A stretch of DNA of 54,017 bases, the filler included, from Catajapyx aquilonaris (Eukaryota), in NCBI GenBank assembly GCA_000934665.2. It is 2 parts of 2 records of this genome, joined end to end, with 100 filler letters (N's around TTAATTAATTAA, not from the genome) between each part and the next. Parts side by side here need not be neighbours in the genome. Positions count along the whole stretch, not along the records: positions 1 to 26,944 come from JYFJ02005133.1; 1 more part is not named here. One strand, written 5' to 3'. The notes beneath the pieces are model-generated. The model made no database searches, was not told the origin of the DNA, and saw nothing but the letters and a program-made list of their open reading frames with translations. Of this stretch, positions 603 to 19,964 are shown piece after piece. How positions within the stretch are numbered: position 1 is the stretch's first letter; each line of letters begins with the position of its first letter. Made by a program: the position numbers and the translations under genes.

Positions 603-3600
603 ATGGAGCTGAGAATATATCTCTTCATAGCTTCCGCTTGTTTCGCCTGGTGCAAGGGGCAAGCGAGTGAGGAGGTAAGTGAGAGTACCGTACGTTAATT
701 ACAATAATGTACTCTATATTATCCATGGAATTCTGTACTGACTGTCCAGAAAATACCGGGTCGTGAAACTAATTTCAATTGCTGATAGCACGTTTTCTCC
801 ATAAAGCATTTAACTTACATAAAATATACCATGTACGTCAAGATGTGATTATTACAATTAAAATTCAAACATGTGCTGTACTATTAGAATAGTTCTACAC
901 AGCACATGCGACACAAGTCACACATATGGGCCTTATTGCGCATTGTGACACCGAACAATGCAAATGACCAAGTTTGGATAACAAAATGACAATAATGCCA
1001 TCAGTACTCTCATATGTACACAATATCATCCTATTTATAACATGCAACCATATTGTAGACAGATATTGAACCGGAAGATGAGGGCGAACCACTGAATCCG
1101 GATGACTTTATCAATGCCATGGAATACGGTAAAGTATTTCATCGTGACATATAATTGCATGTACTATACAGTAATACAGGTTGGAATAGGCCACTAACGA
1201 CTCCAGTCCTCAGATTTTGATGAAACGTCGGGGGAATTAGATGGACATGAATGGAAAGGATACAGTCCCGTAGCTAATGATCTGATAGAATATGACACAG
1301 TAAGTACAACATTAATACTGATCATGAACTAGGTACATTACCTTGACCTTCCCTGTTTCAGTCTCGAGCTATTAAACGAGGCGGCGCGGCGTAAAGGGCA
1401 AAAAAAGATGGAAGCGTTTGCTGTGGCCAAATGCAGTTGTTCCTTACAAACTGCACAAATCGTTCGGTACTGTGAATGAGATGACTTACATTTCAACAAC
1501 ATTTTTAACTGTCAGTTCAGTTGAGATAAATATTTAGCAAAGACCGTAGTGTTTTCACTGCTCGTTTCAGACATTCAATAAACGCATTTATTATTGGTTA
1601 CTAACTTGATGGTTCCAGCTTTATGGCTAATGGTGCAACGGGTGCTCCTAACTGACGGTTTAAATGGTCTGTGAAAAAGGGCAATCAAGTCAAGTAAATG
1701 GCACTTTTTTACGTACAATACTCCAGGAAAAAAGGAACGTGCTGTGATTGCCAAAGCCGTGAACCAATTCCTCAATAGAACTTGCGTCACATTTGTATCG
1801 CGCACAAACGAGAAGGATTACTTGAATATTATACCTGACCCTGGCGATATGCATGAATCTTCACAAAATGTTATTACAAGTACAAGGTGAGTCGGTGACC
1901 TCTGACTATATATGCAAATTTGTTTGCAGTTGCGGCAGTCTCATTGGTCGACAAGGAAGGGATCAGCCTCTTTATCTGGGACCAGTTTGTTTCAAACCTT
2001 ATGCTATAATGCATGAAATCATGCATACTCTGTCGTTCATACGCGAACAAAACAGACCAGATAGAGACCAATACGTTGAAATCGTGTGGGACAATATCGC
2101 AGAAGGTATGTATAAGGATTAGTGAATTTACAAAGTGTCAAGTACAATGCGGAGAAGAAAAGCATTCAAATATTACTTAAGAATGTGTTGTCTCCAAACT
2201 TTTCGTCAATCAGAATTTGGTAGTCAAAGATCATGAATATTATTTCATTATTTCTAGAGAATAAGAACGCCTTTAAGATATCTGATGATTGTGACATCCT
2301 CGGATCTAAATATGACCCAGGTACGGTTACAGGTCAACTTTTAATAGTGCGCACATTGCGATGAGGCGTTGTCGATGGCATCGTCAACGCGCATAGACCC
2401 AACTTGTGTAATTGACATTAACTTACAGGATCGCTGATGCATTACTATGAGTACGATTATGCCAAGGACCGAAACAACCCGGTTATTATTTGGAAAGGTA
2501 AAGGGAAGCCTCGAATGGGAAACAAAAAAGGCTTTAGCAAAGTGAGTCTTTCATACATTACACATTTTTCCTCATTTAAATCAATAACCTCTTACATAAT
2601 AGCTAAAACTTCTACTGCTTGAACCGTTTGTAATTTTTAAGTTCAATATAAACCTAACTTAAACTGCAGTGATAGTGAATAGCTTTATCTCTTTCAGAGA
2701 GACGTGAAGCAGATAAACAAAGTCTACAGGTGCAACAAACAACAGCGCAAACAAGAATGTAAGCACATTTTTTCAATGTCATTATTTTTCTTGACTAATT
2801 TATTCTCTACAAAATATCAATTTTGTCGCCTGTACTCAGAAAACTTATGAGTCAAAATCTGAATATGAAGAATTCTTTTAAAGAACAATATTATATGTAG
2901 AAAGACTTGAGCACTATTCAATCATAATTAGAATGGATTTGAAAAATATGGGGAAATCAGCAAAAAAGTCACAACAACTCAAATTGAGCCGAAGAGCACT
3001 CGAAATATTTAAGTGTGCACTCGCGTAATATTGCTCGCAATAAGAGACGTGATTAGCGTAATTTTCCAAAATTTTCAGCTGTTGTGGAGTGCGTAGATGT
3101 AGACGAAGAAGAAAAGTGCCAACAGCTTTTCGGAACAGGCTTCTGTAAGGGGTCGAGGTATCCGTCCATCATCGCAAGGTGTCGCAAAACGTGTCTACGT
3201 TGTGGTAACCAAACCAGTCTTCTTTACCATACTACATAATTATTATGCAACAATTACAAAGTATGACCGCCAACTATTTCTTACTTTGCAGATAAATGCG
3301 AGGATTTGTATGAAGACAGGTGCATCAACTGGGCCGAACTTGGCCACTGCGACGCGGCCGCAACGCTGGAATTGATGACAGTATTCTGTGCAAAATCATG
3401 CAAGACGTGTATCACCACACACACACACGTAACTGATGCGTTTTCTCTTAAGAGATGTTTTAAAAAATGGCATCAATAATGTGCCTGCCAAGAAAAACTC
3501 ATCAAAGATTACTCATCATGAAAAGTCTAGAGTCGATTACATGTAGGGTGCTTAAATTATCCGTTTGGGTTATTTGTTTATTTTGAATAACTTTCTGTGG

Positions 3601-4177
3601 CTATCAAAATGTAAATAATATTTCTCCGCTAAATGATTTTCTGGTACGTGTGAATCACCCTAAATGTTTGCCTTACCCTTGGTGAGACACCAGCTGCATA
3701 TTTTTATCATCTATGCACTGCACGTGCACAATTCATATATGACTCATTGACGTGTTGTTAATCATATTTCAGCTCGATGTATTGATGTTCATCCCCGATG
3801 CAAAGAGTGGTCCCTGGCAGGAAAATGCGACAAGAATGCAAATTACATGTATCGATATTGCCCCAAAAGCTGCAGAACATGCAAATATCCCAGTTCAGGT
3901 AAAGCTTGCCAAAGGTTTGAGAGTCTAAAAGCCTAGCTTATATTATTACAACACACGATGTAGTTATGGATATTATATCAGCATGTGCCTAGTGAAATAC
4001 TGAGTTATGTCAGTACTTCTTTTATTTTATTTACAGGGTATCAGCCTCCGCCATCTCTACCCGTGATGCAAGCAAATCAAAGTGTGAATGTTTTATTACG
4101 GAGTCTGGCAGAAATGATGCGGGATAGTTTCTGAAAAACTGCTTCAAGCTGTGAGAGATTCGAAAGGATATTCTTAA
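603..4177 (+). pseudogene. Astacin-like metalloprotease with 3 ShK domains (astacin A); probable pseudogene or error-containing copy
   Basis: About 13 exons. Signal peptide MELRIYLFIASACFAWCKG (603-674), pro-segment EGEPLNPDDFINA, WPNAVVPY, TCVTFV, degenerate zinc motif HEIMHTLSFIREQNRPDRD (from 2012), Met-turn SLMHY and three 6-Cys ShK exons (about 3079-3205, 3292-3428, 3773-3898). Lesions: a 1-nt frameshift near 1374-1377 giving TAA at 1392, GC instead of GT at the expected donor 1851, and a phase mismatch after a (CA)n run at 3411-3428. Confidence 0.75.
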
Positions 4178-18118: not shown

Positions 18119-18192
<74 letters not shown>

Positions 18193-19964
18193 AACTGACA
18201 TTTCAGACTCGTTACAAGAAAGGAGATCTTGACAGAAGGTGGCCTAATGGGATCATACCTTATGAAATTGATAGCCGTTACAGTAAGTAATACGGCATGT
18301 CTGTCAATAATAATATTATTAAGAGCATGTAACTCGAAATTAACTCAAAGGAAACTGGCCTCTATGTAATTAGAGCAACAATATCCGGTATCATACGTTA
18401 GTTTTAAGAACTGTGCATTACCGTTGCTTTTAAAAATGGAATGTTGGAACTGACCTGCACACAAGTATACGCAATGGGCATCCACCAACCTATAGCACAC
18501 AAATTAATCATACCGAACCCTTTCACTTACATGTTATTGAAAGACGATAAACATCGCAGCCTGATAGCCAGAGCCTTTGTTGAGTTTCGTAAGAACACAT
18601 GTATCTACTTTAAGCCTCGAACAACTGAAGATAACTACATACGAATCAAGTTTGGTCGAGGGTAAGTTATGCACAGGGAGAAAGTAATTATTTCAACTCA
18701 TACGTTTTTTTATTTCTTTTCGTCAGATGCAACAGTTTCGTGGGAATGCAGGGAGGACCACAATCAATGAATCTGAACCGCAAAATGTGCTTTGACAAAG
18801 TTGGAACCATACAGCACGTGTTGATGCACGTGATCGGATTTTGGCACGAGGAGATGAGACCAGACCGAGATGAATACGTGGAAATAGACTACAGAAACTT
18901 AAAACCAAGTGAAACCTGCTTATTTTAATCACTGTCTGACATTCAGTTGCGTCTATAATCATTTTGCCCTCTGCATTCTCAGGCATGAAAAATAACTTCC
19001 AGATGTGTGACTATGACGTAGGACTGCGGGACGTTTGCCAGACCATCACACCTTATGACTTTGGTAACATAACTTGCAAAATAAGCTACAAAAAAAGCAA
19101 TTATGATCATCATCGACGGTTTATTTCTAGAGTCAATAATGCATTCACCTCAAAATGCATTTGCCATAGACCGTACTGAACCCACAATTACCCCGATTTC
19201 CGGCGAACATCATGAAAAAATGGGACAAAGAGAAGGATTTACCGAAGTATACGTTGCCAAAATATAATTATTGCGTATTCTTACGGAATAATAAACACAA
19301 CAATGATTACTGCCCCAACTTTGCTTTCAGAAAGACATCATCAAGATAAATATACTGTACGAATGTCCACGGGATAATTCACCATTAAAATCTCTCAGTG
19401 GTACACCTGGTAATTATCATACTATTTGTACTTACACATGAGGCATGTTCATGTAGACAGCCACAAGTCACTCATTACCTGCAATGACTCTCTTTAAAGG
19501 TGTGTACTTAGAGCCGTGTCGAAATATCCACAGAGATTGTCAGAAATATGCCGACACCCATTGCAATTATGAAATAACCCCTTGGATGTCTGTCAACTGC
19601 CCTAGGAGCTGTAAAATCTGCAGTTAGGGCATCTGATATCTGATATCTAAAAATTCACATTATGGTTTGACTTTATTATACATTTTTATTTTTTTATATT
19701 TTCGCAGAGAACGACTGCAAAGATAAAAACCCTTTGTGTGCCAAGTGGTCCTTGGCCGGAGCCTGCAAGAAAGTCCCTGAGTACATGACGCTTTACTGCC
19801 CCAAAAGTTGCTCAACATGTCGTAGTGCGGATCGAGGTAAATTCTTTGTTCACCTAACAATCAGTTCTTGCCAAATTGTTTACAATGTCTAATTTTCAGC
19901 TTCAGAACTTGCTGCGCGTGCACGACAACGTAATAGGCCCCAGCCCAAAAAGAGAAAGAATTAG
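15910..19964 (+). CDS. Secreted astacin-like protein with (GKP)n N-terminal repeat and 2 ShK domains, catalytic Glu->Val (astacin E)
   Basis: About 12 exons (a possible mini-exon near 16875-16911 is ambiguous). Signal MRAVRKVILLFAIIICFVEV, KPG repeats, GQPITPKDF, LWEGDII, WPNGIIPY, TCIYFKPRT, HVLMHVIGFWHEEMRPDRD (from 18815), SIMHS, MGQREGFT, two ShK exons, tail ELAARARQRNRPQPKKRKN*. Confidence 0.88.
16012..16103 (+). repeat. Coding 9-bp tandem repeat AAACCTGGC (Lys-Pro-Gly)
   Basis: About 10 units with one 3-nt GCT interruption, inside exon 1 of astacin E. Confidence 0.95.
16475..16746 (-). mobile_element. tRNA-derived SINE (same family as 41985-42350), in an astacin E intron
   Basis: Reverse complement starts GGGGAGGCGTGGTGGCTGAGTAGG (A-box-like) and contains GGGTTCGATCCCC (B box). 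The body aligns by eye to the element at 41985. Confidence 0.8.
17207..17314. mobile_element. Short palindromic MITE (GGG...CCC termini, possibly Harbinger-like)
   Basis: Imperfect ~45-bp inverted arms GGGTTGAATTTTCGTCCAACTGCT... / ...AGCAGTGGGATGAAAATTCCACCC. Confidence 0.6.
17802..17833. repeat. (CT)n microsatellite
   Basis: Perfect CT run seen directly. Confidence 0.95.
18119..18190. repeat. (AAT)n microsatellite just upstream of a splice acceptor
   Basis: About 24 perfect AAT units ending roughly 16 nt before the exon starting near 18207. Confidence 0.97.

What the first reader, a model, noticed from the sequence alone, without database searches (positions are those of the whole stretch)
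603..19964. Tandem astacin array with one likely active protease and four differently inactivated paralogs
Seen: zinc motifs are A HEIMHTLSFIRE (Gly->Ser, His3->Arg), B HQLMHAIGLWHE (Glu->Gln), C HEMMHIVGFHHE (intact), D RLLMHTIGFYSE (His1, Glu and His3 all lost) and E HVLMHVIGFWHE (Glu->Val). Met-turns are SLMHY, SVMHS, SILHY, SLLHP and SIMHS. B, D and E keep open spliced frames, signal peptides, core cysteines, the family Glu after His3 and RxDRD. Established: astacins need the three His, the general-base Glu and the SxMHY Met-turn/Tyr switch. Inference: these are maintained pseudo-proteases (binding, scaffold, decoy or ShK-display proteins) clustered with one active partner, as might suit a specialised secretion such as venom/saliva, seminal fluid or cuticle/egg coat. 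The tissue cannot be read from the sequence.
Basis: partly seen in the sequence, partly recalled or inferred. Interest (0 to 1): 0.82.

Follow-up and report, generated by a model that had tools for sequence, protein, structure and literature searches.

The report
Dead astacin proteases kept by selection
In a cluster of mostly active zinc-protease genes of an invertebrate, three copies have lost the residues needed to cut proteins yet remain intact genes (two are correctly spliced and strongly conserved), so they probably work as binding or decoy proteins, a role well known in other protease families but hardly described for astacins; a fourth 'dead' copy is just a broken duplicate.

Summary
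All five zinc motifs and Met-turns read as reported, but the 'one active plus four dead' picture is a window artefact. The window overlaps the next contig, giving an 11-gene same-strand array with 7 intact zinc motifs. A is a frameshifted young duplicate of its intact neighbour, and its Gly→Ser is shared by active paralogues. B and E are sisters: secreted, two ShK domains, catalytic Glu and Tyr lost, three His and the aspartate-switch motif kept. A second sample holds spliced transcripts of both with the dead codons, and dN/dS is 0.11, lower than any active pair tested. D is a separate loss, sister to C. Neither has ShK and both end in a GPI-like tail. D lost two His, Glu and Tyr but keeps 38 of 44 structural positions, and an intact copy lies elsewhere in the genome. 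dN/dS cannot judge D. Best reading: two independent lineages of maintained astacin pseudo-proteases, secreted zinc-loaded traps or decoys (B, E) and a zinc-free surface binder (D). Function is inferred. The scan noted a D-type gene before on another piece of this genome. Dead astacin motifs also occur in whipworm and tardigrade proteins. New variant; moderate interest.

The parts
1..249 (+). Overlap with the end of contig G000:C2008 (reversed). Holds the last exon and 3' end of A2, the intact sister of gene A; six astacin genes with intact zinc motifs lie upstream.
   Evidence: blastn 98.8% over 249 nt at both contig ends; A2 model open, 468 aa; gene order
603..4134 (+). Gene A: astacin + 3 ShK pseudogene. 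13 exons; exon 4 (1362-1466) and exon 11 (3292-3428) are off frame; His3→Arg at the zinc motif (2012-2047).
   Evidence: Stop after 86 residues; 84% identical to A2 over 3.6 kb including introns; exon 4 is 105 vs 94 nt and exon 11 is 137 vs 135 nt in A2
5619..8932 (+). Gene B: secreted pseudo-astacin, 567 aa. Signal peptide, Thr/Ser-rich pro-region, FxGDI aspartate-switch motif, astacin domain with Glu→Gln and Tyr→Ser, 2 ShK, basic tail.
   Evidence: spliced 1792-nt contig in run X5 whose piece spacing equals the exon lengths
7664..7699 (+). B zinc motif HQxxHxxGxxHE (three His kept, general-base Glu lost); Met-turn at 8036-8050 ends in Ser
   Evidence: aligned to crayfish astacin 1AST; 0 differences over 7575-7757 in X5
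9445..10009 (+). Gene X (not an astacin): 3 exons, 137 aa. Signal peptide, acidic spacer, basic site, 29-residue peptide, GRR amidation-type end.
   Evidence: no Pfam hit, 1 match in the genome, no usable Atlas hit
10684..12611 (+). Gene C: probably active astacin, 306 aa. Intact HExxHxxGxxHE (11749-11784), Met-turn with Leu for Met (12061-12075), no ShK, hydrophobic GPI-like C-terminus.
   Evidence: C-terminal 13-mer hydropathy 2.3
13138..15136 (+). Gene D: pseudo-astacin, 305 aa, sister to C. His1→Arg, Glu→Leu, His3→Ser (14123-14158), Tyr→Pro (14477-14491); all 9 Cys shared with C; no ShK; hydrophobic GPI-like C-terminus.
   Evidence: intact copy D2 on G000:C2505 and 5'-truncated copy D3 on G000:C6334
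15910..19964 (+). Gene E: secreted pseudo-astacin, 452 aa, sister to B. Signal peptide, 10 Gly-Lys-Pro repeats, WxGDI aspartate-switch motif, Glu→Val (18815-18850), Tyr→Ser (19133-19147), 2 ShK, basic tail.
   Evidence: spliced 1121-nt contig in X5 with 0 differences over 18726-18908
20739..22715 (-). Single-exon ionotropic-receptor-like ORF ending the array; a 92% identical copy flanks the far end of the array on C2008
   Evidence: PF00060, E 1.4e-8

Best explanation
This is the downstream half of an 11-gene tandem array of an expanded, fast-evolving astacin family in an invertebrate (probably an arthropod). Most members are active. Catalysis was lost three separate times, with two outcomes. 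(1) A died late as a duplicate of A2 and is a pseudogene (shown). (2) B/E and D are kept without catalysis. B and E are secreted (signal peptides; splicing shown). They keep the three zinc His, the Met, the family Glu, RxDRD, the pro-peptide aspartate switch and an Arg at the maturation position, so they should fold, load zinc and be processed (inferred). They lack the general-base Glu and the transition-state Tyr, so they should bind peptides in the cleft without cutting them, like a trap mutant (inferred from the established mechanism). Their ShK pair, basic tail and mucin-like or Gly-Lys-Pro pro-regions would hold them in a mucus or matrix layer. Most likely job: a decoy or scaffold that binds substrates or inhibitors of the active paralogues at a barrier or gut epithelium (inferred; about 0.35 for this specific role). 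D arose from the lineage of C after that lineage traded ShK for a GPI-like tail. It cannot bind zinc and most likely serves as a cell-surface binding module beside its active sister C (inferred).
For: Motifs and open models. Contig join and 7 of 11 intact motifs. Tree with B+E 100/99, D clade 100/100, C+D 99/94 and A+A2 100/99; three changes needed in all 200 bootstrap trees. B-E dN/dS 0.11 at dS about 2.1, upper bound <0.2, against 0.43-1.28 for 8 active pairs. Terminal branches 0.13 and 0.12, p 0.015 and 0.028 against 1. Spliced transcripts of B and E in a second sample and study, with zinc exons unchanged. D keeps 38 of 44 structural but 1 of 5 catalytic positions (Fisher p 0.004). 7 of 12 nucleotides differ from C in the four lost codons, yet neutral drift of 0.2 per site leaves D's frame stop-free in 2 of 1000 runs. 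D vs D2: 4 of 4 exon-length changes are multiples of 3, while 25 of 34 intron gaps are not. B and E keep F/WxGDI (motif defined in PMC9848320). ADAM pseudopeptidases show both patterns (PMC11266112 Table 2).
Against: No protein-level, structural or binding data; the role is inference. dN/dS does not show constraint on D: D-D2 0.79-0.87, n.s.; D stem 0.39, p 0.25. One of the three D copies (D3) is truncated and frameshifted. B and E carry different residues at the Glu (CAA vs GTG), so the Glu may have been lost twice and late, and much of the 0.11 could date from an active past. For B and E the structural-versus-catalytic test is not significant (p 0.22 and 0.14). The active pairs used as controls are less diverged (dS 0.05-0.56) than B-E, which tends to raise their ratios. 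Expression rests on one assembled run of unrecorded library type. GPI anchoring rests on hydropathy only.
Confidence: 0.65

Rival explanations
1. B and E lost the Glu recently and independently; they are redundant, dying duplicates whose conservation dates from when they were active.
For: Gln (CAA) and Val (GTG) are each one step from Glu but at least two from each other. The family turns over fast and has produced at least two broken copies, A and D3. No orthologue was found to date the loss.
Against: Both sisters share Tyr→Ser in the Met-turn, found in 0 of 23 intact-motif paralogues, which points to decline in their ancestor. Both are intact, spliced and unchanged in a second sample. Two separate late hits at the same residue, with no other lesion in 1.7 and 1.4 kb of coding sequence, would be a coincidence.
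Confidence: 0.15
2. The D clade is a relaxed, decaying set of duplicates with no function.
For: D-D2 dN/dS 0.79 (CI 0.50-1.34) and stem 0.39, both n.s.. D3 is a fragment.
Against: Young active pairs give the same ratios (0.67-1.28). All four catalytic losses predate the D/D2/D3 split, and D and D2 remain open with frame-keeping indels, 9 Cys, signal peptide and hydrophobic tail. About 19 frame-breaking gaps would be expected at the intron rate; no exon changed frame.
Confidence: 0.12
3. B and E keep weak or altered catalytic activity through the intact three-His zinc site.
For: Three His, Met, family Glu and aspartate switch are kept.
Against: The Glu is the general base/acid and the Tyr stabilises the intermediate (PMC9848320). 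Val cannot act as a base. No substitute acidic residue was seen in the motif.
Confidence: 0.07
4. B and E are carriers that display or release ShK domains as ion-channel-active venom or saliva components.
For: Two Pfam ShK domains each and basic tails. ShK-astacins occur in parasite glands (PMC10828956) and astacin arrays in spider digestive fluid and venom (PMC5553785). A peptide-precursor gene lies in the array.
Against: 0 of 4 ShK domains in B and E have a Lys-Tyr/Phe pair between Cys3 and Cys4. ShK tails are the family norm (21 of 28 models show two or more ShK-type motifs). The dead protease domain is itself strongly conserved, which a mere carrier would not need. D has no ShK.
Confidence: 0.08
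5. A is functional: the breaks are assembly errors or are bypassed by a downstream acceptor.
For: An in-frame AG exists further into exon 4. Only 12 of 37 indel rows were shown, so reads did not settle exon 4. A short X5 contig (depth 4) matches A exon 11.
Against: Three separate lesions (exon 4, exon 11, His3→Arg). The alternative AG has 33% upstream pyrimidines against 92% for the natural one. The exon-11 length recurs with 0 gaps in the second sample.
Confidence: 0.05

Closest known systems
Astacin family, MEROPS M12A / Pfam PF01400 (crayfish astacin 1AST); ShKT-astacins such as salmon louse LsLGA1-8
   Same: Signal peptide, pro-region, about 195-residue domain with ExxRxDRD, Met-turn and core Cys; C-terminal ShK domains in A, B and E; tandem clusters as in the spider Stegodyphus (7 and 8 loci on two scaffolds; PMC5553785 passages).
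   Different: All eight louse enzymes and all Stegodyphus genes keep the full zinc motif. Here B, D and E lack the catalytic Glu and Tyr, D also lacks two His, and C and D end in a GPI-like tail instead of ShK.
ADAM pseudopeptidases (M12B): ADAM7 (HQ motif), ADAM29, and ADAM2/11/18/22/23/32
   Same: Metzincin fold kept without catalysis. Both grades seen here occur: Glu-only loss (ADAM7, like B) and loss of Glu plus His ligands (ADAM2/18/22, like D). They act by protein binding (PMC11266112 abstract and Table 2 passages).
   Different: Different subfamily. ADAMs have disintegrin, Cys-rich and transmembrane parts, and some discard the dead domain. That review lists no astacin pseudopeptidase in its tables.
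Database astacins with dead motifs (Trichuris trichiura CDW52714.1; five Paramacrobiotus metropolitanus proteins; Ptychodera flava XP_070567933.1)
   Same: Glu→Gln, Glu→Leu or Glu→Lys in an otherwise astacin-type motif.
   Different: Uncharacterised; several are dead second domains of multi-domain proteins. None of the 8 with a readable Met-turn has the B/E Ser. Not orthologues.
Drosophila sperm leucyl aminopeptidases (S-LAPs, M17) and scabies-mite inactive cysteine proteases
   Same: Arthropod multigene expansions in which a clade lost catalysis and was kept (PMC3078892 abstract; PMC5956821 listing only).
   Different: Other protease families; tissue and protein abundance are known there and unknown here.

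Membership tests
Astacin M12A (homology) | Pfam PF01400 domain above the curated cut-off | tested here: met
   5 of 5 zinc exons score 53.8-78.4 bits against a cut-off of 22.5; best PDB hits are zebrafish hatching enzyme and crayfish astacin (B exon)
Astacin M12A (homology) | Family Glu after His3 and xxRxDRD; four core Cys | tested here: met
   Present in A-E
Active astacin peptidase | HExxHxxGxxH with three His and the general-base Glu | tested here: not met
   Met only by C; B, D and E lack the Glu, D lacks His1 and His3, A lacks His3
Active astacin peptidase | SxMHY Met-turn with Met and Tyr switch | tested here: not met
   Tyr lost in B, E (Ser) and D (Pro). Met is Leu in C and D, a variant found in 5 of 23 intact-motif paralogues and tolerated in MMP-2 but harmful in Erwinia protease C (PMC1266349)
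Active astacin peptidase | Pro-peptide FxGDI aspartate switch | tested here: inconclusive
   Present in B and E; not found in the models of C, D or A2, nor by pattern upstream of most intact paralogues
Active astacin peptidase | Measured proteolysis and zinc binding | not testable with these tools
   Needs recombinant protein
Maintained pseudo-peptidase (B, E) | Catalytic residues absent but gene intact, transcribed and under purifying selection | tested here: met
   timing of the Glu loss not resolved
Maintained pseudo-peptidase (D) | Catalytic residues absent but gene intact, transcribed and under purifying selection | tested here: inconclusive
   Frame and fold positions kept; dN/dS not below 1 significantly; transcript not shown
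Maintained pseudo-peptidase (A) | Open reading frame through the protease domain | tested here: not met
   Stop after 86 residues; second frameshift at exon 11
ShKT-astacin | One or more PF01549 domains after the protease domain | tested here: met
   B 2 of 2 and E 2 of 2 above cut-off, A 2 of 3; absent from the models of C and D
ShK-type K+ channel blocker | Lys-Tyr functional dyad | tested here: not met
   0 of 4 domains in B and E; dyad described in PMC10828956, its place between Cys3 and Cys4 recalled
GPI-anchored protein (C, D) | Signal peptide, small-residue omega site, polar spacer and hydrophobic C-terminus | tested here: inconclusive
   C-terminal 13-mer hydropathy 2.3, 2.9 and 2.5 for C, D and D2 against -0.4 to 1.1 for A2, B and E; no trained predictor was available

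The most novel reading that the evidence does not exclude
One array has evolved two dedicated kinds of astacin pseudo-protease. B and E are zinc-loaded, maturable traps that shield or present substrates, or soak up inhibitors, for the many active paralogues. D is a GPI-anchored, zinc-free partner that pairs with its active sister C, possibly through the odd ninth cysteine that both share. These would be the first astacin-family pseudo-enzymes with defined regulatory roles, paralleling the pseudo-ADAMs.
Probability: 0.2. Interest if true: 0.75.

Novelty: new variant of a known kind. Interest (0 to 1): 0.5.

Why it matters
Pseudo-enzymes are well documented among ADAMs and M14 carboxypeptidases, but a 2024 review of pseudo-metallopeptidases lists none for astacins, and eight literature searches here found no study of one. 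This locus gives two independent dead lineages next to active sisters, with transcript and selection evidence. C versus D is a matched active/dead pair, and B versus E a long-conserved dead pair. That makes it directly testable what an astacin fold does without catalysis. It does not reveal a new mechanism by itself, and the tissue is unknown.

Tried and rejected
- Single-exon homologue search with D's zinc exon: 1 candidate, none scored.
- Profile searches with the five zinc exons and with B+E returned only general astacins; no orthologue of B, D or E, so the losses cannot be dated against relatives.
- No run on record as RNA was listed.
- Run X5 has no cover over C, D or gene X. A blank in an assembled run says nothing on expression, so co-expression with C is open.
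- DNA runs X1-X3 may be the source sample and are not independent. Only 12 of 37 indel rows were shown, so A's exon 4 was not checked against reads.
- Pairwise dN/dS was rejected as a test for D and A, because five young active pairs give 0.67-1.28.
- Branch model: several deep branches are saturated or at the bound, including the D2 tip and the B/E stem; those values were ignored.
- Gly→Ser in A was rejected as an inactivating change (4 of 23 intact paralogues share it).
- An earlier start for C at 9445 was rejected: those exons form gene X. An ATG at 13283 for D was passed over for the signal-peptide exon at 13138, which D2 shares.
- The spliced aligner gave spurious 5' ends for D3, C4343 and C3373; these were trimmed before the tree.
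- A mitochondrial COX1-like piece reads in the invertebrate code but gave no usable lineage name.
- Gene X: no Pfam, genome or Atlas relative.
- No primary paper on astacin Glu or Tyr mutants was found.
- No structure or complex model was made, so fold retention rests on sequence conservation.
- No supplementary files were read.

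
Full report
OBSERVATION. Exon models give open GT-AG spliced frames for B (12 exons), C (9), D (10) and E (12), all with hydrophobic N-termini. All 5 zinc exons pass the Pfam Astacin cut-off; the 4 ShK exons of B and E and 2 of the 3 of A pass the ShK cut-off. B's exon aligns to crayfish astacin with Gln opposite the catalytic Glu. The review PMC9848320 (passages; second part of section 5) defines the family by HEXXHXXGXXH, EXXRXDRD, SIMHY and a pro-peptide FXGDI motif, and names the Glu as general base and the Tyr as intermediate stabiliser.

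THE ARRAY IS LARGER AND MOSTLY ACTIVE. Window bases 1-249 match the end of contig C2008 at 98.8%. Joined, the two contigs carry 11 same-strand astacin genes over about 50 kb, and 7 of the 11 keep three His and the Glu. In the genome a PF01400 search gave 30 loci; 29 hold a zinc exon, 23 of the 29 are intact, and the 6 others are A, B, D, E and two further D-type copies (one search also gave 29; these are lower bounds). 'One active partner' is therefore an effect of where the window was cut. A tree of 29 own-genome and 11 outside domains needs three separate losses in all 200 bootstrap trees: B+E (100/99), D+D2+D3 (100/100, sister to C at 99/94) and A (sister to its upstream neighbour A2, 100/99). 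The placement of B+E among the other clades is unresolved.

GENE A IS A PSEUDOGENE. It is 84% identical to A2 over 3.6 kb including introns. A2 is open (468 aa, three ShK-type domains). A's exon 4 is 105 nt against 94 in A2, and exon 11 is 137 against 135; the spliced frame stops after 86 residues, before the protease domain. The Ser at the motif Gly is shared by 4 of 23 intact paralogues, including A2, so only His3→Arg is a lesion. At the intron gap rate (30 frame-breaking gaps in 2139 nt) about 18 would be expected in its exons; two exons are off frame, so A died late after the duplication. Caveats: exon 4 could not be checked against reads (12 of 37 indel rows shown), and a weak in-frame acceptor exists downstream.

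B AND E ARE EXPRESSED AND CONSERVED. Run X5 is from a second sample and study; its library type is not on record, but it skips introns. It holds a 1792-nt contig over B with four GT..AG joints among the 15 of 38 joint rows shown, and a 1121-nt contig over E. The spacing of the listed pieces equals my exon lengths (390 and 194 nt for B, 399 for E), and the zinc exons show 0 differences, so the dead codons are not assembly errors. A codon model gives B-E dN/dS 0.11 (dN 0.24, dS about 2.1, upper bound <0.2), against 0.43-1.28 for 8 active pairs, though those are less diverged. A five-taxon branch model gives 0.13 and 0.12 on the two terminal branches (p 0.015 and 0.028). Both share Tyr→Ser in the Met-turn, seen in 0 of 23 intact-motif models, and both keep F/WxGDI. 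Both have an Arg ten residues before the conserved Trp, as C does at its maturation site. Against: the Glu codon became CAA in B and GTG in E, so two late losses cannot be excluded, and the structural-versus-catalytic test is not significant for them (37 and 39 of 44 structural, 3 of 5 catalytic; p 0.22 and 0.14).

D IS A SECOND, MEMBRANE-TYPE LINEAGE. C and D lack ShK domains and end in hydrophobic tails (13-mer hydropathy 2.3 and 2.9) that look like GPI signals, whereas 21 of 28 modelled genes show two or more ShK-type motifs downstream. D has Arg, Leu, Ser and Pro at His1, Glu, His3 and Tyr. That is 7 of 12 nucleotides different from C, yet D keeps 38 of 44 structural positions against 1 of 5 catalytic ones (p 0.004; C itself keeps 39) and all 9 Cys. 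D2 on C2505 is a full open copy with the same dead motif, and D3 on C6334 is a truncated, frameshifted fragment. D and D2 differ in exon length at 4 of 9 compared exons, each time by a multiple of 3 (the DNA aligner split one of these into 7+2), while 25 of 34 intron gaps are not multiples of 3. Neutral simulation leaves D stop-free in 34 of 1000 runs at 0.1 changes per site and 2 of 1000 at 0.2. Against: D-D2 dN/dS is 0.79-0.87 and the D stem 0.39, neither significantly below 1, although five young active pairs are no lower (0.67-1.28). An earlier scan note (e1-7832459) describes a ten-exon dead astacin of 2206 bases on another piece of this genome. By size and exon count it is probably D2; it agrees with this reading but is not independent support.

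C IS PROBABLY ACTIVE, WITH A CAVEAT. Its Met-turn has Leu for Met. This occurs in 5 of 23 intact-motif genes here. Met→Leu barely affects MMP-2 but impairs Erwinia protease C (PMC1266349 passages).

HOW IT MOST LIKELY WORKS. Shown: gene structure, motif losses, independent origins, splicing and constraint for B/E, frame retention for D. From established mechanism: no general base means no normal hydrolysis; loss of two His means no zinc in D. Inferred: B and E fold, bind zinc and are matured, then hold peptides in the cleft like trap mutants. They are anchored in a matrix by ShK domains, basic tails (net +9 and +7 in the last 25 residues) and a 37% Thr/Ser or Gly-Lys-Pro pro-region. ShKT-astacins are mostly expressed in barrier and gut epithelia (PMC9848320), which is my default setting. 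There B and E would act as decoys or scaffolds for the active paralogues, and D as a surface binding module beside C. A channel-blocker role is disfavoured: 0 of 4 ShK domains have the Lys-aromatic pair. The host is an invertebrate (COX1-like piece in the invertebrate code) and probably an arthropod (divergent single-exon ionotropic receptors flank the array; arthropod association recalled); tissue is unknown.

COMPARISON AND NOVELTY. Pseudo-ADAMs show the same two grades of loss (PMC11266112 passages incl. Table 2); that review mentions astacins once and tabulates no astacin example. Searches returned no study of a catalytically dead astacin. The library lacks most subscription journals and MEROPS was not searchable, so this is weak absence. 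The blowfly peptidase survey PMC4826915 (passages) lists no M12A non-peptidase homologue in the rows seen. Dead motifs do occur elsewhere: 3 of 124 motif matches's 120 listed proteins (two look like model errors) and 11 of 165 in the 146 new proteins of the B+E-biased search, including a whipworm protein and five tardigrade proteins. Tandem astacin clusters are known from spiders and ShK-astacins from salmon louse glands, all with intact motifs (passages). Retained dead protease clades are known in arthropods from other families (PMC3078892 abstract). The effect sizes of astacin Glu and Tyr mutants are recalled only; no primary paper was found.

VERDICT. Observation confirmed; interpretation partly supported. 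Three maintained pseudo-astacins from two origins and one pseudogene lie in a mainly active 11-gene array. It is a new variant of a known kind, interest 0.5; the dedicated trap-and-partner reading has probability 0.2 and would rate 0.75.

Noticed in passing
window 9445-10009 (+): Three-exon gene X inside the array: signal peptide, acidic spacer (37% Asp/Glu), basic site, a 29-residue partly amphipathic peptide and a GRR end. It has the layout of an amidated antimicrobial, venom-type or signalling peptide precursor. No Pfam, Atlas or second genomic match.
   Followed up: partly
window 20739-22715 (-) and G000:C2008:33351-35389: The astacin array is bracketed by two 92% identical single-exon ionotropic-receptor-like genes in inverted orientation.
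   Followed up: partly
G000:C2008, C1701, C3065, C7948, C4703: Young active astacin duplicates have dN/dS of 0.67-1.28, suggesting relaxed or diversifying selection across the family; A versus A2 is 1.15-1.21.
   Followed up: partly
G000:C2008 (two most upstream genes) and C1701, C3065: Met-turn variants in intact-motif genes: Thr in 2 and Leu in 5 of 23, unusual for a residue described as nearly invariant.
   Followed up: no
window exon 2 of C (10811-10874) and D (13348-13408); C1701, C3065, C7948: A pro-region motif ends in Cys in the C/D/C1701/C3065 clade and in Phe in A2, B and E. All 12 modelled genes found with the pro-Cys also have a Cys in helix A, which may tether the pro-peptide by a disulfide. 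It is one clade, so one event.
   Followed up: partly
G000:C6334:~4900-6080 (-): D3: copy of D exons 6-10 only, with an off-frame exon 9; no exons 1-5 upstream on the contig and no second exon-5 match in the genome.
   Followed up: yes
window ~4680-4830, ~5900-6006, ~16290-16710, ~17200-17315: Short high-copy repeat elements in introns and spacers, with depth up to several thousand in DNA runs.
   Followed up: no
window 24196-26944 (-): Exon-like ORFs rich in His, Gln, Pro and Ser of an unidentified gene running to the contig end; the window beyond 26944 is another contig behind an N linker.
   Followed up: no
G000:C5905:606-1792 (-): Frameshifted COX1-like sequence in a nuclear contig, probably a mitochondrial insertion.
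   Followed up: partly
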